DNA of 64,000 nt from Patescibacteria group bacterium (GCA_038062455.1 JBBTXE010000001.1:58371-122370); one strand, 5' to 3'. Numbered from the stretch's first letter, positions 11,420 through 53,511 are shown. Notes: a model not told the origin generated them from the sequence alone. Program-made: numbers and translations.

Positions 11420-11453
11420 TAATACTTGATACTTAATACATAATACGTAATAC
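11412..11453 (+). repeat. heptanucleotide tandem array, NTRATAC units x5-6
   Basis: catacta ataatac ttgatac ttaatac ataatac gtaatac, ending 7 nt before the ftsK ATG. Confidence 0.8.
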
Positions 11454-11460
11454 TGTATAT

Positions 11461-18593: not shown

Positions 18594-19319
18594 ATGGGCT
18601 ACACCTATTTAAAAAAGTCTTCACCAAAAAGTCGCCGCCATTCCCTCAAGCCCCGAAAAATTTTTGCTGTTGTTTTTTTAAGTCTAGGGGTGTTTTTATT
18701 TCTCTCCGCCGTTTTACCCATTATTCAGTTTCAATTTGAGTATTCTCTTAAATTTAATCAAATAATCAGCCCTCTTTCTTCCCGTTTTTCCGACTCCGGC
18801 TCTGTTTTAGGCGAGAATACCGATTTTACCCAGCTGTCAAATTGGTTCATACCGGGTTCCGCCGTTGTCTCAAGTAACCCTAATTTTTTTTCACCCGACA
18901 ACAAAATTGCCTCCTATTCAATCTCTATTCCTAAACTAAAAATTAGTGAGGCTGAAGTTCTTTTTGGCAGTTCAGATCTAAAAACCAGTTTAATCCAATA
19001 CCCCCAAACCGCCCTTCCGGGTCAGCTGGGTAGTTCGGTAATTTTCGGACATTCGGTTTTACCCCAGTTTTTCAATCCCAAATCCTATCTAACTATTTTT
19101 TCCACTCTCTATAAATTAAAGTTGGGTGATGAAGTTTTTGTTGATTTTGATAACGTCAAATATCGCTATTTAGTTGAGGAAATGTATGAAGTCCAACCCA
19201 CTGATCTTTCGGTGCTGGAACAACGCTTTGATGGCCGCTATCTCACCCTTATTACCTGTTCACCTCCGGGTACTTATCTTCGCCGCCTAATTGTTAAAGC
19301 CCGGATTGTAGAAATTTAA
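18594..19319 (+). CDS. sortase family transpeptidase
   Basis: N-terminal TM anchor, catalytic His (VIFGHS), TLITCSP (TLxTC) Cys motif and a conserved Arg near the C-terminus. Confidence 0.8.
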   Translation: MGYTYLKKSSPKSRRHSLKPRKIFAVVFLSLGVFLFLSAVLPIIQFQFEYSLKFNQIISPLSSRFSDSGSVLGENTDFTQLSNWFIPGSAVVSSNPNFFSPDNKIASYSISIPKLKISEAEVLFGSSDLKTSLIQYPQTALPGQLGSSVIFGHSVLPQFFNPKSYLTIFSTLYKLKLGDEVFVDFDNVKYRYLVEEMYEVQPTDLSVLEQRFDGRYLTLITCSPPGTYLRRLIVKARIVEI

Positions 19320-19855
19320 ACCTGGTTTTTTCTACTCCAATATAATTTTTCGGTCAAACCGCCCTCTCTCTCAAACTTTTCAATCATGGCTTTGATCTGT
19401 TTTTCGAGAAGATAGGTGACAATGTGGCAGAGAGTCAATAAAAAATTCGCGTTTGCCTCGGGATTATTAGATAGTTTCGCTTTGACTTTTAAGTCACCTA
19501 AGTCACTTAAGTTTCTTAAGTTACTTAAAGAATAAGCAATTGTCTGAAATTTTCCAATAATTATCGAACCTTTCTCGTAAACTTTCATTTGATGTTGTCT
19601 TAGGAAGTCTTCATAATCGGCTTGCAGTTCTTCAAAAGACGCCTTGGCTACGCCCAATAGTTTTATTTCTCCCTTTTTCGAGGTTTGGCTTTGTCCGACT
19701 CCTTCAACAATATTTTGTTTTCCTGATCTAGCGGCCTGTTCCATCTGGTCCCTTGTTCGGGATTTATAATCAATGTTTTTTTTAACAAACTCCACCGTCA
19801 AATCATGGATAATCAAAGCATATCTGTAGGTTAAAAGATATTTATATTTTTCCAT
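19316..19855 (-). CDS. four-helix-bundle protein (23S rRNA intervening-sequence-protein-like)
   Basis: YRYALIIHDLTVEFVKK...QMEQAARSGKQNIVEG...ASFEEL pattern of the four-helix-bundle (TIGR02436-like) family. Confidence 0.65.
   Translation of the reverse strand: MEKYKYLLTYRYALIIHDLTVEFVKKNIDYKSRTRDQMEQAARSGKQNIVEGVGQSQTSKKGEIKLLGVAKASFEELQADYEDFLRQHQMKVYEKGSIIIGKFQTIAYSLSNLRNLSDLGDLKVKAKLSNNPEANANFLLTLCHIVTYLLEKQIKAMIEKFEREGGLTEKLYWSRKNQV
19490..19528. repeat. 9-bp tandem repeat TAAGTYWCY x4.3 inside the four-helix-bundle gene
   Basis: taagtcacc taagtcact taagtttct taagttact taaag, translated on the minus strand as LSNLRNLSDLGDLK. Confidence 0.8.
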
Positions 19856-21965: not shown

Positions 21966-22169
21966 ATGAAAAAACCAATCGTCTATATCCTAGCTGTTTT
22001 TGGTGCTGTTTTTGTCTATTATTTACTTCGGGCTGTTTGGGGAGGGTTTTCCTCTACTGCTGCTCCCAACAAAATGGTTCAAAAAGCCAAATGTGTTGCC
22101 GAATGTCGGAAAAATGCTTTAAGTGAAAATTGTGATCAATATTGCCTAGATCAGTCATTTAATCAATAG
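21966..22169 (+). CDS. small membrane-anchored protein with a twin Cx3C motif
   Basis: 67 aa. N-terminal TM helix, then CVAEC...CDQYC. Confidence 0.4.
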   Translation: MKKPIVYILAVFGAVFVYYLLRAVWGGFSSTAAPNKMVQKAKCVAECRKNALSENCDQYCLDQSFNQ

Positions 22170-23169
22170 GTTTTTTGTTCACCAACTCGTCTAATATTCT
22201 CCACCTTCTCTTCTTTTCACTCATCGGTACGTCATCCTCATATAGTTTGGCGGAAACTGTGCCTCGCCTCGGGCTATACTTATTTATATAAGCAATTTCA
22301 AATATGACCTTTTTACAGACCGAAACTGTTTTTTGAAAAGCGGCTTCGTCCTCTCCCGGAAACCCGACAATTATATCGGTTGACAATCTTACTCCCGGAA
22401 TTTTCTTTTTAATTCTTGACACCAATTTCAAATATTCCTCTTGTGTATATCCCCGTTTCATTCTTTTCAAAATTTCATCATCACCCGACTGAAAAGGCAG
22501 ATGAATTAAGCGGTCAATATTTTTATATTTGGCGATGGTGTCAATTAGCTCATCCGAAAAATCCCAGGGGTTACTACTAATAAATGAAACTTTTTTTAGA
22601 TTTTTTTGGGCCACTGCCTCCAGTAATTTTGGGAAACTGGGCTGGTAGGAATTTACATTTTGTCCAATCAATACTACTTCTTCAAAGCCCTTGTCTATCG
22701 CTTTATCCACCTCATTTAAAATTTCCTTCATGCTTCTGGATATTTCCCGACCGCGGGAGTAGGGGACTATACAATAGGAGCAATAATTGTCGCAACCGGA
22801 GCTTATTGGAACCAATGCCGCGCTTCTATTTCTCCTTAGTGGCTCTACTTCAAAACTAATGTTTTTTATCGGCAACATCTCATCTACACCCTCGATCTTC
22901 TTTTTAGCAATCGGCACCAAACACCCGGTCAAAATAATTTTGGGTTTTTTATTCGTAATTCGTAATTCGTAATTCGTAATTTTATTGATGAGTCCATATA
23001 CTCTGTTTTCTGCCGATTCCCGGACGACACAACTATTTATAACTACCACATCTGCCTCTTTCCAATCATCTACCAATTTATCACCCTTCTCCCAAAAAAA
23101 GGTTTTTATCCTCTCCGAATCAGCTTCATTCTGAACACAACCAAAAGTCTTTATATAAATTTTCGCCAT
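22159..23169 (-). CDS. MiaB/RimO-family radical SAM methylthiotransferase (no TRAM domain)
   Basis: IKTFGCVQNEADSE N-terminal domain; radical SAM CDNYCSYC. The start at the internal ATG (MAKIYIK) avoids overlap with the neighbouring gene. Confidence 0.8.
   Translation of the reverse strand: MAKIYIKTFGCVQNEADSERIKTFFWEKGDKLVDDWKEADVVVINSCVVRESAENRVYGLINKITNYELRITNKKPKIILTGCLVPIAKKKIEGVDEMLPIKNISFEVEPLRRNRSAALVPISSGCDNYCSYCIVPYSRGREISRSMKEILNEVDKAIDKGFEEVVLIGQNVNSYQPSFPKLLEAVAQKNLKKVSFISSNPWDFSDELIDTIAKYKNIDRLIHLPFQSGDDEILKRMKRGYTQEEYLKLVSRIKKKIPGVRLSTDIIVGFPGEDEAAFQKTVSVCKKVIFEIAYINKYSPRRGTVSAKLYEDDVPMSEKKRRWRILDELVNKKPID
22951..22981 (+). repeat. heptanucleotide tandem array (ATTCGTA) x4.4 inside a CDS
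   Basis: attcgtaattcgtaattcgtaattcgtaatt, read on the minus strand as ITNYELRITN within the methylthiotransferase. Confidence 0.9.
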
Positions 23170-32226: not shown

Positions 32227-32649
32227 ATGCCCACAATTAATCAATTAATCCGAAAAAAAAGAATCGTTCGTCGGGAAAAACTTAAATCGGTTGCCCTTCG
32301 GGGTAATTTCAACAGTCTTAAAAATACTCTTGTTCCTACCTACAATCCCCAGAAAAAAGGTGTTGTCACTGTTGTCAAAACCATGACTCCCAAAAAACCT
32401 CATTCGGCTCTCCGCAAAGTTGCCAAAATCCGTTTGAGTAATCACTCCACTATTACTGCCTACATTCCCGGTATTGGCCACAATCTGGCCGAACATGGCA
32501 TCGTTTCTATCCGGGCCGGCCGGGTCCGTGACCTTCCCGGTATCCGTTATCACGTTATTCGGGGCCGCTATGATGCTTCTCCGGTGGCCGGCCGTCTTCA
32601 GTCCCGCAGTAAATACGGTGTCAAACGTCCCGCCAAAGCCACTGCCTAA
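32227..32649 (+). CDS. rpsL: 30S ribosomal protein S12
   Basis: [10 protein letters not shown]...[10 protein letters not shown] signature. Confidence 0.97.
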
Positions 32650-32690
32650 CTTTATAAACTTTACAAACTTTTTAACTTTATAAACTCAAA
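32648..32690 (+). repeat. 8-9 bp tandem repeat AACTTTAY(A) x5 filling the rpsL-rpsG spacer
   Basis: aactttat a aactttac a aacttttt aactttat a aactcaaa. Confidence 0.7.
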
Positions 32691-39535: not shown

Positions 39536-39570
39536 ATTATACGTAATACTTGATACTTAATACTTAATAC
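39536..39570 (+). repeat. heptanucleotide tandem array, NTRATAC units x5
   Basis: attatac gtaatac ttgatac ttaatac ttaatac, ending 5 nt before the rfbD ATG. Confidence 0.8.
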
Positions 39571-39575
39571 GTCTT

Positions 39576-40454
39576 ATGAAAATCATCGCCACCGGTATCA
39601 CCGGCTTAGTTGGTTCCCGAATTTCAGAGCTTAACCCCGATCTTTCTTTTGCCGATATTTCCATTGAATCCGGCATCAGTATTCTGGATCCAGTGGCTTT
39701 AGAAAAAGTATTTACTAACAACCCCGACGCTGTCACCGTTTTACATTTAGCCGCCTTTACTGATGTTAATGGGGCTTGGTCACAAAATAAAGACCAAAAT
39801 GGTTTATGTTTCCAGTTAAATGTCACCGGTACTCAAAATATTGTCAATCTATGTAAAAAATATGGTAAATATTTAATTCACATTTCTACCGATTATGTTT
39901 TTGACGGCACCAAGGAAGGAAAATATTTAGAAACCGATACCTCCAGTCCGATCGAATGGTATGGTGAAACCAAATATTTAGCTGAAAAAGTCGTCCTCGA
40001 TTCCGGCATCAAAGCCGCCATCCTTCGTCTGGCTTTTCCTTATCGCGCCTCTTTCGAGCCCAAAAAAGATATTGTCCGAAAATTAATTGACGGTTTTAAG
40101 GTCGGCAAACTTTATCCCCAATGGACCGATCATTTTACCTCACCCACCTTTATTGATGATATCGCTGTCGCTGTCCGTAAATTTATCGACAACCAATACA
40201 CCGGTATCTACCATTGTTGCGGCTCTTCCGCCCAGTCACCCTTTGATATGTGTCAATTAATTGCCGAAGTTTTTGGGTTTGATAAATCGTTAATTGTCGC
40301 CTCAACTTTGGCTGAATTTCTTACCACCCAGGCTCCTGGTTCCCGCCCTTGGCAAAAAAATCTCTCCCTCGATAATTCTAAAATTACCGCTCTGGGTATC
40401 AAAATGAAAACTCTCCGCGAAGGCCTTGAAGAGATGAAACGTCAGCTTTCTTAG
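39576..40454 (+). CDS. rfbD: dTDP-4-dehydrorhamnose reductase
   Basis: Rossmann N-terminus GITGLVGS, HISTDYVFDG, YGETKYLAE catalytic motif. Confidence 0.85.
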   Translation: MKIIATGITGLVGSRISELNPDLSFADISIESGISILDPVALEKVFTNNPDAVTVLHLAAFTDVNGAWSQNKDQNGLCFQLNVTGTQNIVNLCKKYGKYLIHISTDYVFDGTKEGKYLETDTSSPIEWYGETKYLAEKVVLDSGIKAAILRLAFPYRASFEPKKDIVRKLIDGFKVGKLYPQWTDHFTSPTFIDDIAVAVRKFIDNQYTGIYHCCGSSAQSPFDMCQLIAEVFGFDKSLIVASTLAEFLTTQAPGSRPWQKNLSLDNSKITALGIKMKTLREGLEEMKRQLS

Positions 40455-41634
40455 CCACCTTCTCCCCCTCCCGCACCCCAAAGTTAATCCCCCTATCTTC
40501 CGGATAAATATTGGCAAAATTCACGTTGATAATTTTTCCGGCTGTTTTTTGATAATTGATAATTGAGTGTTGATAATTGGCATCAACGATATGTTGCGCA
40601 TATTTAAATTTGAAAATATTTTTCTCTGAAATTTGTTTTTTATCAAAATCGGGTAAAATCTTTTTCAAATAATCAAAAAACTCCTGCCAAATTATTTTGT
40701 CATCAACTTTAAAATATCTATGGTTTTGAGGAAGATAGGTGCCAAGATAATAGACTTGTTTTTCTTGGTACTGAGTACTTGGTACTAAGTTCGTGTGTTG
40801 AATCATCGCCACGAAAGGGGATTTGGGATCAGTAATATTATGCCAATAAAATTTACTCAAATTTTGAGTTGATGAAAACACTGCCGTTATTGCCCCCAAA
40901 TAATCAACATTTAGTAACGCTTCCGAACTGATCACTGTATCGTAATTCGTAATTCGTAATTCGTAATTCGTAATTTTTGTATTTAGCTTTATTTCTCCCC
41001 CCAACTTCTTAATTCTCTTTTTCAGTTCTTTGATTATTTGCCCAAATCCCCCCATTAAATAACCCAATTTTTCACCACCTTTTTCGCTCGAATTGGCTCG
41101 GGTGTGAATTCGGGCCCAGAGCCAGGCCATCGAAATATCCTGATATCGATTGGCAAATTTTCCTTTTAATAACGGCTCCCAAATAATTTCATAGGCTCTT
41201 TCTCCACACCACTTTTTCATCCATTGATAGGCTAAAACATTTTCAAACTTCTGCCACTTTTTTTCTTTTTCCAAATAAATCTTTACTAAACCCAAACGAA
41301 CTTTGTCAAAAATATTTAACGGCTTAAAATGCAGTAAATCTATTGCCCCATTAAATGGCCACATTTTTTTACCAAAATATATCGCCGTTGATCCGTTAAA
41401 CCATTTTAATTTTGACGATAGTCCCAAGTCTTCAATTAATTCGATAATATATTTATCGGTTTTAAAAATATGATGATAGGCTTTCTCCAAACCCTTCCCC
41501 TCAATTTTAAAAGACCCCAAAAGTCCGCCCAATTCCTTTTCTTTTTCAAAAATCGTCACCTCGTGTCCCGCTTGTAATAATCGATACCCTGCCACCAATC
41601 CGGTTATTCCGGCTCCGATAATTGCTACCTTCAT
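40399..41634 (-). CDS. FAD/NAD(P)-binding oxidoreductase (amine oxidase/protoporphyrinogen-oxidase-like)
   Basis: MKVAIIGAGITGLVAGYRL...IFEKEKELGG dinucleotide-binding motif. Its 3' end overlaps rfbD convergently by 56 nt. Confidence 0.7.
   Translation of the reverse strand: MKVAIIGAGITGLVAGYRLLQAGHEVTIFEKEKELGGLLGSFKIEGKGLEKAYHHIFKTDKYIIELIEDLGLSSKLKWFNGSTAIYFGKKMWPFNGAIDLLHFKPLNIFDKVRLGLVKIYLEKEKKWQKFENVLAYQWMKKWCGERAYEIIWEPLLKGKFANRYQDISMAWLWARIHTRANSSEKGGEKLGYLMGGFGQIIKELKKRIKKLGGEIKLNTKITNYELRITNYDTVISSEALLNVDYLGAITAVFSSTQNLSKFYWHNITDPKSPFVAMIQHTNLVPSTQYQEKQVYYLGTYLPQNHRYFKVDDKIIWQEFFDYLKKILPDFDKKQISEKNIFKFKYAQHIVDANYQHSIINYQKTAGKIINVNFANIYPEDRGINFGVREGEKVAKKADVSSLQGLRGEFSF
40938..40975 (+). 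repeat. heptanucleotide tandem array (ATTCGTA) x4 perfect, plus degenerate/partial units, inside a CDS
   Basis: tatcgta attcgta attcgta attcgta attcgta att, read on the minus strand as KITNYELRITNYD. Confidence 0.9.
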
Positions 41635-42511: not shown

Positions 42512-42546
42512 AAAATACGTAATACTTAATACGTAATACTTGATAC
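42512..42546 (+). repeat. heptanucleotide tandem array, NTRATAC units x5
   Basis: aaaatac gtaatac ttaatac gtaatac ttgatac, ending 9 nt before the fusA ATG. Confidence 0.8.
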
Positions 42547-42555
42547 TATTTTTAT

Positions 42556-44675: not shown

Positions 44676-45278
44676 GTGGTCGTTGACGATCCTTTTCGTT
44701 TTGCTGATAAATTTGCCGTCAAATCATCCCGTTTACCAAATTGGGACTACTCATCTCCCGGAATATATTTCAATACTATTTGCACTCTCAATCACAATAA
44801 TTTCTTTGGAAAAATTGTTGATAATAAAATGGTTTTGTCGACTTGCGGTCAGATTGCTCGCGATGAATTAATTAAAACAATTCAAATTCGAAACAATATT
44901 TCCATCGACCTGTGGGTAATAATGCCCAACCATATTCATCTGTTAATCACCATTTATGATTGTCATGTAGAGACGCCCCGCGGGGCGTCTCTACGAATAA
45001 ACCCCACGTCTCTACAGCAAAATAAAGTGATAACCATATCTCAAGAAAAACGCGAGTTGTTTCAGAGGTTAAATACCAAATCAAATCAAATAGTCCCGAA
45101 AATGATTAATCAATTTAAATCACGTGTCACTCTGGTTTGCAGACAAAACAATTTCTTTTTCGCCTGGCAATCTCGTTTTTATGATGAAATCATCAAAGAC
45201 AATCAACGGTTTATGGTAGTTAAACACTATATTCAAAACAATATTGCTAACTGGAACAAAGATAAATTCTATCGATAA
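44676..45278 (+). CDS. IS200/IS605-like HUH Y1 transposase, REP-associated (RayT-like)
   Basis: HUH motif PNHIHLL and the catalytic Tyr region WQSRFYDEII. Flanked by, and interrupted in-frame by, 28-bp palindromes. The GTG start is uncertain. Confidence 0.7.
   Translation: MVVDDPFRFADKFAVKSSRLPNWDYSSPGIYFNTICTLNHNNFFGKIVDNKMVLSTCGQIARDELIKTIQIRNNISIDLWVIMPNHIHLLITIYDCHVETPRGASLRINPTSLQQNKVITISQEKRELFQRLNTKSNQIVPKMINQFKSRVTLVCRQNNFFFAWQSRFYDEIIKDNQRFMVVKHYIQNNIANWNKDKFYR
44967..44994. repeat. REP-like perfect 28-bp palindrome GTAGAGACGCCCCGCGGGGCGTCTCTAC (inside the RayT-like ORF)
   Basis: Self-complementary. Translated as VETPRGASL. The next ~22 nt resemble the sequence following the 45285 copy. 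Confidence 0.9.
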
Positions 45279-45284
45279 TAATCC

Positions 45285-45312
45285 GTAGAGACGCCCCGCG
45301 GGGCGTCTCTAC
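45285..45312. repeat. REP-like perfect 28-bp palindrome (downstream of the RayT-like ORF)
   Basis: Identical to 44967-44994. Confidence 0.9.
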
Positions 45313-46699: not shown

Positions 46700-46798
46700 G
46701 AATAATTTAAAAAATAAATTAATAATTAATAATTTAAAAAAATAAGTTCGATTTCTTTAGACATTAGAAATTAGGATTTAGAAATTTTTTGTATTAGT

Positions 46799-49327: not shown

Positions 49328-49338
49328 TCTATCAATTA

Positions 49339-49373
49339 ATTCGTAATTCGTAATTCGTAATTGATAATTAATT
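49339..49373 (+). repeat. heptanucleotide tandem array: ATTCGTA x3, ATTGATA, ATTAATT
   Basis: Ends 4 nt before the rpsS ATG. Shares a 23-nt stretch (attcgtaattcgtaattgataatta) with the 53477 array. Confidence 0.85.
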
Positions 49374-53442: not shown

Positions 53443-53476
53443 TAAATAGTTTATTTTTTAAAAAATAAAAAATTAA

Positions 53477-53511
53477 ATTCGTAATTCGTAATTGATAATT
53501 AATAATTAATA
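53477..53511 (+). repeat. heptanucleotide tandem array: ATTCGTA x2, ATTGATA, ATTAATA x2
   Basis: Ends 3 nt before the rplF ATG. Confidence 0.85.

What the first reader, a model, noticed from the sequence alone, without database searches (positions are those of the whole stretch)
22951..22981. ATTCGTA heptamer array translated as ITNYELRITN inside a radical-SAM methylthiotransferase
Four and a half tandem copies of a 7-nt unit sit inside an otherwise conserved enzyme gene on the minus strand, between the N-terminal MTTase domain and the following conserved block. Because 7 is not a multiple of 3, the reading frame survives only for particular copy numbers. Gain or loss of one unit by slippage would frameshift the gene. 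The identical unit, in the same + strand orientation, occurs in a second unrelated CDS (40938) and in intergenic arrays (49339, 53477).
Basis: partly seen in the sequence, partly recalled or inferred. Interest (0 to 1): 0.65.

Follow-up and report, generated by a model that had tools for sequence, protein, structure and literature searches.

The report
Fixed heptamer repeat inside MiaB gene
A perfect 7-base repeat inside a tRNA-modification gene of an uncultivated groundwater bacterium is real, but it is a stable in-frame member of a poorly understood family of 7-base repeat arrays found across several phyla, not a frameshift on/off switch.

Summary
(ATTCGTA)x4.4 lies at 22951-22981 inside a minus-strand MiaB-like gene. 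The same unit occurs at 40940, 49337 and 53476.

It belongs to a window-wide excess of period-7 arrays: 7 perfect arrays against 0.06 expected. All carry TAATNNN on the + strand. Six fill the spacer just before an ATG of + strand genes, including rpsJ, rpsS, rplF and fusA. The others lie in two minus-strand genes, where the complementary strand is open in all frames.

The frameshift-switch reading is not supported. The MiaB protein is identical on 7 contigs. Intergenic arrays are identical in four assemblies. Orthologues of 60-86% identity, and a Planctomycete MiaB of 41% identity, carry a heptamer array at the same site; in the closer orthologues (70-86%) the segment length is unchanged.

The array is also more conserved than the gene around it: 46 of 50 third-codon positions match, against 48-62% gene-wide.

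The closest known analogues are cyanobacterial STRR heptamers and the TAACTGA repeats of Beggiatoaceae. (TAATTCG)3 is 10-25 times commoner in IMG/VR than composition-matched controls.

Side lead: PF05635 "23S rRNA IVS protein" genes are usually flanked by inverted heptamer arrays.

The parts
22951..22981 (+). (ATTCGTA)x4.4, i.e. TAATTCG units on the + strand. On the minus (gene) strand it reads (ATTACGA)x4 and encodes ITNYELRITN of the MiaB-like protein.
22159..23169 (-). MiaB/RimO-family radical-SAM methylthiotransferase, 336 aa. It has UPF0004 and Radical_SAM domains and no TRAM domain. The cysteine triad C11/C47/C83 and the CxxxCxxC motif are intact.
40940..40975 (+). (TCGTAAT)x5.1, the same unit. 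It encodes KITNYELRITNYD at variable site 1 of a minus-strand FAD-dependent oxidoreductase.
40549..40579 (+). (TTGATAA)x4.4 by TRF (75% matches); the perfect core is 40549-40566, 2.6 copies. It encodes NYQHSIINYQ at variable site 2 of the same oxidoreductase. Orthologues L382 and L383 carry (AATTACG)x3.6-4.6 at this site.
40399..41634 (-). FAD-dependent oxidoreductase (Amino_oxidase/NAD_binding_8; NF005560), the second host gene of heptamer arrays.
49337..49369 (+). TAATTCG x3, then TAATTGA and TAATTAA, filling the rplB-rpsS spacer and ending 8 nt before the rpsS ATG (49378).
53476..53511 (+). AATTCGT x2.6, then TAATTGA and TAATTAA x2, ending 3 nt before the rplF ATG (53515).
11420..11454 (+). 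TAATACT TGATACT TAATACA TAATACG TAATACT. It fills the 41-nt spacer between the ProRS-like and FtsK-like genes (ATG 11461). It is 94-96% identical in relative L089.
39539..39570 (+). TAATACT-family array ending 5 nt before the ATG at 39576.
42514..42547 (+). TAATACT/TAATACG array ending 8 nt before the fusA ATG (42556).
46757..46786 (+). TTAGACA TTAGAAA TTAGGAT TTAGAAA array before the rpsJ ATG (46799). The same unit family forms the miaB-site array of L004 and an intergenic array of L084.

Best explanation
The tract is one copy of a genome-wide family of heptanucleotide tandem arrays (units TAATTCG, TAATACT/G, TAATTGA, TAATTAA, TTAGAAA). These are of the same kind as cyanobacterial STRR repeats and the TAACTGA repeats of Beggiatoaceae.

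Shown:
- On the + strand each unit carries a stop codon. Because 7 is coprime to 3, that stop falls in all three frames within three copies.
- The arrays are therefore found only between + strand genes, where they fill the spacer just before the ATG in this Shine-Dalgarno-poor genome, or inside minus-strand genes, where the complement (ATTACGA) is open in every frame.
- Inside genes they sit at structurally permissive sites with a frame-preserving length. In MiaB the tract extends the distal end of the helix after the second cluster cysteine and the following loop.
- The array is old and fixed. It has the same position and length in orthologues, and its nucleotide sequence is held far more constant than the gene's synonymous sites.

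Inferred:
- The arrays arise and are kept uniform by replication slippage and gene conversion, with a bias towards a few favoured heptamers.
- Selection on reading frame freezes the length.
- The intergenic copies may serve as start-codon-proximal RNA or DNA elements, and the genic copies are tolerated by-products of the same process.

It is not a frameshift on/off switch.
For: - Period-7 excess and shared TAAT core, all on the + strand.
- Six intergenic arrays end 3-14 nt before an ATG. SD-like motifs occur at only 8 of 79 starts.
- Genic arrays lie at hypervariable sites of two unrelated enzymes, where orthologues carry other small inserts or none.
- AF2 places the peptide at a helix end and loop.
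- Stability: identical proteins on 7 and 6 contigs, and identical intergenic arrays in 4 assemblies.
- An orthologous array is present in L082, L084/85, L086, L003, L004 and the Planctomycete L033.
- Array identity is 26-29 of 30 nt and 46 of 50 third-codon positions, against 48-62% third-position identity gene-wide.
- L086 has ATTACTA in three units but ATTACAA exactly where a T would create an in-frame TAA. This shows homogenisation opposed by frame selection.
- Independent gains of arrays at one gene junction and at a different site of the oxidoreductase.
- Favoured units: (TAATTCG)3 gives 50 stretches and (TAACTGA)3 107 in IMG/VR, against 5 and 2 for composition-matched controls.
- The same anatomy is published for TAACTGA (PMC4679880). 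Heptamer SSR excess in bacteria is reviewed in PMC4692102.
Against: - No mechanism explains why 7 nt, or why these particular units recur in genomes of 25-67% GC. Plain slippage of local sequence would give site-specific units.
- The strong nucleotide-level conservation could mean the genic copy itself is functional rather than a by-product.
- Leaders containing arrays are not less structured than other AT-rich leaders, so a simple 'unstructured landing pad' role is unsupported.
- The one-strand bias of the window is not repeated in L082, where an intergenic array has the opposite orientation.
- The assemblies compared come largely from one aquifer and are consensus sequences, so minority length variants would be invisible.
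Confidence: 0.6

Rival explanations
1. Contingency locus. Slipped-strand gain or loss of one 7-nt unit frameshifts miaB and switches tRNA methylthiolation on and off in the population.
For: The unit length is not a multiple of 3 and the tract is perfect at 4.4 copies. Heptamer tracts control expression by phase variation in Haemophilus HMW adhesins (PMC8262952, listed).
Against: - Identical protein on 7 contigs.
- No length change in orthologues of 70-86% identity, and an array at the same site in more distant ones.
- Intergenic arrays are invariant across assemblies.
- The tract is short.
- The gene is a conserved housekeeping gene with an intact active site.
Confidence: 0.03
2. The peptide ITNY(E/K)LRITN is a selected functional part of this MiaB lineage, for example a helix extension contacting tRNA or a partner. 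On this reading the DNA periodicity is incidental.
For: Same position and length in several Microgenomates lineages. Predicted helical continuation. In-frame stop avoidance in L086.
Against: - Close orthologues have unrelated inserts or none at the site.
- The same peptide occurs in unrelated proteins: the oxidoreductase, LeuRS, ValRS, TsaD, RsmH and glycosyltransferases.
- Synonymous positions are conserved far beyond what protein selection needs.
Confidence: 0.1
3. All arrays, including the genic ones, are functional nucleic-acid elements. They would be binding sites on DNA or RNA for a repeat-recognising factor (S1, Csp-like or unknown), and selection keeps their exact sequence.
For: Nucleotide-level conservation of the genic array and of the proS-ftsK spacer array, 94-96% against 78% for the surrounding region. 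Position just before start codons, including in the r-protein operon. Favoured units across phyla. Proposed for TAACTGA (PMC4679880) and for Nostoc heptamers (10.1101/2022.06.06.494920).
Against: - Arrays are present or absent at the same junction in close relatives, and with different units.
- The orientation rule is not universal.
- No candidate binding protein was identified.
- No structural signature was found.
Confidence: 0.2
4. The arrays are, or derive from, an ultra-small mobile element. They would be the terminal repeats, landing pads or scars of small cassettes, such as PF05635 four-helix-bundle genes flanked by inverted heptamer arrays, or products of a strand-specific ssDNA transposase.
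For: - 9 of 11 PF05635 genes in the fetched loci are flanked by inverted short tandem arrays, 8 of them heptamers and several of them (AATTACG)n/(TAATTCG)n.
- Inverted array pairs are common.
- The same unit occurs in hosts of very different GC and in viral contigs.
- Independent gains at permissive sites.
- A Y1 transposase-like gene lies in the window.
Against: - No target-site duplication or defined ends at filled versus empty sites.
- The window's arrays are all solo and direct.
- The window's own PF05635-like gene has no array flanks.
- In phage contigs the arrays flank ordinary genes too.
- The miaB array has stayed at one site over long divergence.
Confidence: 0.12

Closest known systems
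TAACTGA heptamer direct repeats of marine Beggiatoaceae, some Cyanobacteria and Bacteroidetes (MacGregor 2015, PMC4679880)
   Same: - Arrays of 2-6 copies of a TAA-starting heptamer.
- Mostly 'forward' within a few nt of a start codon that lacks an SD.
- Present inside ribosomal-protein operons.
- The forward strand has stops in all frames. 'Reverse' copies occur inside ORFs as a 7-aa repeat.
- One favoured unit plus related 'split' units.
- Patchy cross-phylum distribution.
- Reverse TAACTGA itself occurs in relative L086.
   Different: - Different units (TAATTCG, TAATACT).
- The host is a small-genome CPR bacterium.
- Here the in-ORF copies sit at internal permissive sites of conserved housekeeping enzymes, and are orthologously conserved at nucleotide level. 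In BOGUAY they lie mostly at protein termini or in hypothetical ORFs.
STRR (short tandemly repeated repetitive) heptanucleotides of heterocystous cyanobacteria (Mazel et al. 1990, cited in PMC4692102; my own knowledge for details)
   Same: Tandem heptamers of a few unit types are dispersed through the genome. The ITNYELR translation of (AATTACG)n is found in 'hypothetical proteins' of Nostoc, Anabaena, Cylindrospermopsis and Tolypothrix PCC 7601.
   Different: Cyanobacterial arrays are often much longer and mostly intergenic. Their conservation inside essential genes has not, to my knowledge, been described.
Phase-variable simple sequence repeats (contingency loci) of Haemophilus and Neisseria
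   Same: A tandem repeat whose unit is not a multiple of 3, lying within a coding sequence.
   Different: No copy-number polymorphism, a short tract, a housekeeping gene, and conservation over deep divergence.
Rickettsia palindromic elements and REP-like small elements inserted in frame in genes (Ogata et al. 2000; my own knowledge)
   Same: Short repeated DNA tolerated in frame at permissive surface sites of conserved proteins. Relatives of this genome carry small GC-rich hairpin elements (KSPFDKGD type) at the very same sites.
   Different: The heptamer arrays are direct tandem repeats, not palindromes, and are only 20-35 nt long.

Membership tests
Heptanucleotide direct-repeat arrays (STRR / TAACTGA type) | Period-7 tandem arrays over-represented relative to other periods and to chance | tested here: met
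   7 perfect arrays against 0.06 expected. 73 period-7 4-mer triples against 0-14 for periods 5, 6, 8 and 9.
Heptanucleotide direct-repeat arrays (STRR / TAACTGA type) | A few favoured units recur at several loci, with related 'split' units | tested here: met
   TAATTCG at 4 loci and TAATACT/G at 3 loci. Arrays end in TAATTGA/TAATTAA variants.
Heptanucleotide direct-repeat arrays (STRR / TAACTGA type) | Intergenic copies lie forward, within a few nt of a start codon that lacks an SD, including in r-protein operons | tested here: met
   Six arrays end 3-14 nt before an ATG (ftsK-like gene, 39576, fusA, rpsJ, rpsS, rplF). None has an SD.
Heptanucleotide direct-repeat arrays (STRR / TAACTGA type) | The forward strand has stops in all three frames, and in-ORF copies are in reverse orientation | tested here: met
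   TAA at period 7. The genic arrays lie only in minus-strand genes and read ITNYELR.
Heptanucleotide direct-repeat arrays (STRR / TAACTGA type) | The same unit occurs as tandem arrays in other taxa more often than composition-matched heptamers | tested here: met
   IMG/VR: 50 stretches against 5 and 2 for the controls. Named protein hits are in Nostocales, Tannerella and WWE3.
Phase-variable contingency locus | Copy-number polymorphism among strains, assemblies or reads | tested here: not met
   Identical proteins on 7 and 6 contigs. Identical intergenic arrays in 4 assemblies. No length change in orthologues of 70-86% identity. Reads were not available.
Phase-variable contingency locus | The host gene is of a class under fluctuating selection (surface, restriction-modification, virulence) | tested here: not met
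   MiaB/RimO-family tRNA methylthiotransferase and an FAD oxidoreductase.
MiaB (tRNA i6A37 methylthiotransferase), host gene | UPF0004 domain with three cysteines, a radical-SAM CxxxCxxC core and a C-terminal TRAM domain | tested here: inconclusive
   UPF0004 and Radical_SAM are present. TIGR00089 scores 344 bits (cut-off 251). The MiaB equivalog TIGR01574 scores 322, below its cut-off of 355. There is no TRAM domain in this protein or in any close orthologue.
REP / RPE-like palindromic in-frame insertion elements | Imperfect palindrome able to form a hairpin | tested here: not met
   The tract is a direct repeat. (UAAUUCG)6 folds no better than shuffles. No inverted partner lies within 1.5 kb in the window.

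The most novel reading that the evidence does not exclude
Heptamer arrays such as (TAATTCG)n may not be ordinary microsatellites. They could be the working ends of a cross-phylum family of ultra-small mobile cassettes. These would be the terminal inverted repeats, or RNA stems, of PF05635 four-helix-bundle ('23S rRNA IVS protein', Avd-like) genes. Solo arrays in start-codon spacers and in permissive protein loops, like the one in miaB, would be their landing pads or scars. A sequence-specific machinery would keep them uniform, which would explain the same unit in genomes of 25-67% GC and in phages.
Probability: 0.12. Interest if true: 0.8.

Novelty: new member of a known kind. Interest (0 to 1): 0.5.

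Why it matters
Heptanucleotide tandem arrays have been known since 1990, and their excess in bacteria since 2007. Neither their origin nor their function is understood.

This locus shows that they also pervade a CPR (Microgenomates/Shapirobacteria-like) genome. It also provides tractable comparative material:
- An array held at one site of an essential-type enzyme across deep divergence, with synonymous positions frozen.
- Clear gain and loss at neighbouring gene junctions.
- One case where homogenisation is visibly opposed by stop-codon avoidance.

Together these make three questions testable by comparative genomics: why 7, why these units, and conversion versus selection.

For annotation, ITNYELR-type segments in conserved proteins should be read as repeat-derived inserts, and assemblies can be expected to break at such arrays.

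Tried and rejected
- **Unstructured-leader idea.** MFE of -40..+20 around the six array-preceded starts (mean -4.8 kcal/mol) is no weaker than for other leaders of GC 0.30 or less (mean -4.5). Pure arrays fold like their shuffles. Not supported.
- **Promoter idea.** I tested TTGATA in the TGATACT variant unit as a -35 box. The spacing to a -10-like box fits only one of the three TAATACT arrays by hand, and the consensus scan gave nothing specific.
- **Antisense ORF after the miaB array.** The ATG at 22988 on the + strand opens an ORF of about 46 codons. That ATG is the complement of conserved Leu-Ile codons. Judged spurious.
- **Known RNA families.** Rfam found nothing in the window.
- **Hairpin element of relatives.** TCTCCCTTTGACAAGGGAGA is absent from the window even with 3 mismatches.
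- **Target-site duplication or clean 21-nt insertion.** Filled and empty sites show neither. The miaB site is about 5 aa longer than the minimal form, not 7.
- **Genome-contig scan with the MiaB alignment.** Close orthologues were then fetched one at a time.
- **Elhai et al. 2008 (PMC2527708)** on small dispersed repeats is not held.
- **Assembly artefact.** Rejected, because the array is present in Illumina and long-contig assemblies from several samples.

Full report
**1. The observation**

The sequence at 22951-22981 is ATTCGTA x4.4, perfect. It lies in a minus-strand ORF whose product, taken from the ATG at 23169, is 336 aa and matches UPF0004 (residues 3-94) and Radical_SAM (121-282). NCBIfam places it in the MiaB/RimO family: TIGR00089 scores 344 bits against a cut-off of 251. 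The best solved relative is Bacteroides uniformis MiaB, 7MJV/7MJZ.

The tract encodes ITNYELRITN between the conserved YGLINK and KKPKIILTGC.

The same unit, in the same + strand orientation, occurs at 40940-40975 (inside a minus-strand FAD oxidoreductase), 49337-49362 and 53476-53493. The 14-mer has 9 matches against 0.04 expected.

**2. It is part of a window-wide period-7 phenomenon**

Perfect arrays of at least 2.5 copies number 7 for period 7, against 0.06 expected under a Markov-3 model. There are none for periods 8-15. A 4-mer recurring three times at spacing 7 occurs 73 times, against 0-14 for spacings 5, 6, 8 and 9. TAATNNNTAATNNNTAAT occurs 12 times on the + strand and never on the minus strand.

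The units are TAATTCG, TAATACT/TAATACG, TAATTGA, TAATTAA and TTAGAAA.

Six arrays fill the spacer immediately before the ATG of + strand genes:
- the FtsK-like gene (ATG 11461)
- the gene starting at 39576
- fusA (42556)
- rpsJ (46799)
- rpsS (49378)
- rplF (53515)

These are shown.

On the + strand the TAA of each unit falls in all three frames within three copies. The complement ATTACGA is open in all frames. This accounts for arrays occurring only between + genes or inside minus-strand genes.

The two array-bearing genes are both on the minority strand. Minus-strand genes make up about 12% of coding sequence, so the chance of both falling there is about 0.015 (my estimate from the ORF lists). 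I note this strand bias but cannot tie it to replication within 64 kb. In relative L082 an intergenic array has the other orientation.

Shine-Dalgarno-like motifs are rare, at 8 of 79 starts. The arrays are therefore not replacing an otherwise universal SD.

**3. Organism and orthologues**

The closest proteins come from Candidatus Shapirobacteria/Microgenomates MAGs (CPR). The identical MiaB protein sits on 7 contigs, including assemblies from the Hainich aquifer.

In an alignment of 39 orthologues, the site after YGLI(N/D)KI is hypervariable. It takes four forms:
- TNYELRITN or TNYKLRITN (heptamer-coded)
- RKWEQIPRQPRLTPPLRKGGLKT-type
- RKAESASANASARRR-type
- a minimal KKFNPKIE

At DNA level the heptamer-coded orthologues read as follows:

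| Locus | MiaB identity to window | Array at the site |
|---|---|---|
| L082 | 86% | ATTACGA ATTACAA ATTACGA ATTACGA |
| L084/L085 | 84% | five ACGA/ACAA units, differing synonymously between two contigs that encode the same protein |
| L086 | 70% | ATTACTA ATTACAA ATTACTA ATTACTA |
| L003 | 60% | AATTACA AATTACG AATTACG |
| L004 | 62% | TAATTTC x4.4 |

A Planctomycetia MAG MiaB of 41% identity (L033) carries (ATTACAG/ATTACAA)x7 at the aligned position.

The insert length is unchanged among the orthologues of 70-86% identity. The PPLKKGG-type insert of L088 is a pair of GC-rich hairpins, so the site also accepts small palindromic elements.

**4. Not a switch**

No copy-number variant was seen:
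- MiaB is identical on 7 contigs and the oxidoreductase on 6.
- The rpsS, rplF and rpsJ arrays are identical in the window, a long-contig assembly (L210) and two other Hainich assemblies.
- Five short-read contigs simply break inside the rpsS array, as expected for a sequence repeated elsewhere in the genome.

Read-level data were not available.

**5. The array is conserved at nucleotide level**

Against five orthologues, the 30-nt array is 26-29 nt identical, and 46 of 50 third-codon positions match. Whole-gene third positions are only 48-62% identical.

The proS-ftsK spacer array is 94-96% identical to that of L089, whereas the surrounding 8 kb is 78% identical.

In L086 the unit has become ATTACTA in three copies, but remains ATTACAA in exactly the copy where a T would create an in-frame TAA. 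I read this as homogenisation towards a lineage-preferred unit, opposed by selection for an open frame.

**6. Yet arrays are gained and lost elsewhere**

Two cases show turnover:
- At the junction before a small Cys-rich gene (window 14454), the window and L089 have TAA-C-ATG. L082 has seven ATTACTA/TTTACTA units there, and L084 has TTAGACA/TTAGAAA x4.6.
- In the oxidoreductase, site 1 carries (ATTACGA)x5.1 only in the window. Elsewhere it holds the KSPFDKGD hairpin, PPRELGSFLEEGRL, SDVRSQ or nothing. Site 2 carries (AATTATC)x2.6 in the window but (AATTACG)x4.6 and x3.6 in L382 and L383.

The same few small sequence families therefore swap at permissive sites of unrelated genes.

**7. The unit is favoured far beyond this lineage**

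- 22 of 69 internal arrays lie inside a long ORF on the opposite strand. Host genes include LeuRS (twice), ValRS, TsaD, RsmH, a radical-SAM enzyme and glycosyltransferases.
- These loci hold 78 other period-7 arrays, against 39 for periods 5, 6 and 8-12 together.
- In IMG/VR, (TAATTCG)3 occurs in 50 stretches and (TAACTGA)3 in 107. The composition-matched controls (TAATCGT)3 and (TTATACG)3 occur in 5 and 2.
- A query of six ITNYELR repeats finds 179 proteins. The named ones are mostly from Nostocales, including Tolypothrix PCC 7601, plus Tannerella and a WWE3 CPR bacterium.

**8. Comparison with the literature**

MacGregor (2015, PMC4679880) described TAACTGA arrays in Beggiatoaceae, Cyanobacteria and Bacteroidetes with the same anatomy:
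- forward copies within a few nt of start codons lacking an SD
- presence in r-protein operons
- stops in all forward frames
- reverse copies inside ORFs
- one favoured unit
- unexplained cross-phylum distribution

Rehm et al. (PMC4692102) summarise the excess of heptameric SSRs in bacteria and the polymerase-footprint slippage hypothesis (Mrazek 2007), as well as the Calothrix STRR heptamers. A Nostoc preprint reports effects of start-proximal heptamer repeats on expression.

I found no paper describing such arrays in CPR bacteria, or their orthologous conservation inside housekeeping genes. The library is incomplete, however.

**9. Structure**

The AF2 model has pLDDT 83 and pTM 0.79. It places residues 64-73 at the C-terminal end of helix 51-71 and the loop before strand 77-82, which leads to C83. 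HMMER aligns the segment to the variable LNRLEFFHSLKKKK stretch of B. uniformis MiaB with small gaps. The site is therefore a plausible permissive surface position. Location on the surface is predicted, not shown.

**10. Mechanism and verdict**

Best supported: this is an STRR/TAACTGA-type heptamer array, fixed in frame at a permissive site. It is kept uniform by slippage or conversion biased towards favoured units, and held in length by frame selection. It is not a phase switch.

Still open is whether the nucleotide-level constancy reflects a function of the sequence itself or biased conversion.

Tests that gave nothing: RNA unstructuredness, a promoter role, Rfam and an antisense ORF.

**11. 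Side lead**

In the fetched loci, 9 of 11 PF05635 (23S rRNA IVS protein / four-helix-bundle) genes are flanked by inverted short tandem arrays. Eight of these are heptamers, and several are (AATTACG)n/(TAATTCG)n. Seven of the 11 have a perfect array within 12 nt of the ORF.

Inverted array pairs with 5-45-nt loops are also common. In phage contigs, arrays flank ordinary genes too, so the link is not exclusive.

This suggests that the arrays can act as stems or terminal repeats of small cassettes. It is the basis of the most novel reading I cannot exclude.

Noticed in passing
L258:612-1036; L167:11670-12100; L129:4661-5093; L136:300-800; L124:1397-1858; L033:7467-8130; L336:4440-5010; L020:2590-3120; L108:3130-3760: PF05635 (23S rRNA intervening-sequence protein / four-helix-bundle) genes are flanked by inverted short tandem arrays, mostly heptamers. 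An example is (TAATTCG)x4 | gene | (AATTACG)x4. This holds for 9 of 11 such genes in the fetched loci. The arrangement resembles the stem of an rRNA IVS. I found no paper linking the two.
   Followed up: partly
window 44676-45312: A Y1_Tnp (IS200-like/RAYT-like) gene lies between fusA and tuf. It carries a perfect 28-nt palindrome, GTAGAGACGCCCCGCGGGGCGTCTCTAC, in frame (44967-44994, reading VETPRGASL). A second identical copy lies just downstream (45285-45312). This looks like a REP/RAYT-type pair inside the str operon.
   Followed up: partly
window 22159-23169 and orthologues P0001-P0120: The MiaB-like methylthiotransferase of this whole Microgenomates lineage lacks the C-terminal TRAM (tRNA-binding) domain (about 330-370 aa against about 440). 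It scores below the MiaB equivalog cut-off, so its substrate is uncertain.
   Followed up: no
L088:1453-2511, L383:1911-3107 and proteins P0004, P0007, P0126, P0146, P0190 (alignments A1, A2): Relatives carry small GC-rich hairpin elements in frame at the same permissive sites of MiaB and the oxidoreductase. An example is TCTCCCTTTGACAAGGGAGA, reading KSPFDKGD. They are absent from the window.
   Followed up: partly
window 19316-19855 (-): A 179-aa weak PF05635-like gene lies on the minority strand between the sortase and ruvX genes. It is present in L084 and L088 but absent at that position in L082, L087 and L089. It contains a period-9 array (19489-19528).
   Followed up: partly
window, many starts (e.g. 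9998, 14787, 8658, 36567-, 38966): TATAAT-like boxes lie 6-8 nt upstream of the ATG, and SD motifs are nearly absent (8 of 79 starts). This suggests widespread leaderless or SD-independent initiation.
   Followed up: no
L084:2326-2352 and L004:3132-3158: A second heptamer array (TCAGATC x3.9, reading RIRSQISDVRF) lies in miaB of some relatives. It replaces the window's RIKKKIPGVRL with no length change, so arrays can arise in place without a net insertion.
   Followed up: partly
window 32648-32686: A period-9 array (AACTTTATA x4.4) lies directly upstream of the rpsG ATG (32693). In relative L383 the same junction carries two heptamer arrays.
   Followed up: no
window 1-64000: GC skew is negative across the whole window, and more so over minus-strand genes. 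This implies a strand-wide C excess on the strand that carries rpoBC and the ribosomal-protein operons.
   Followed up: no
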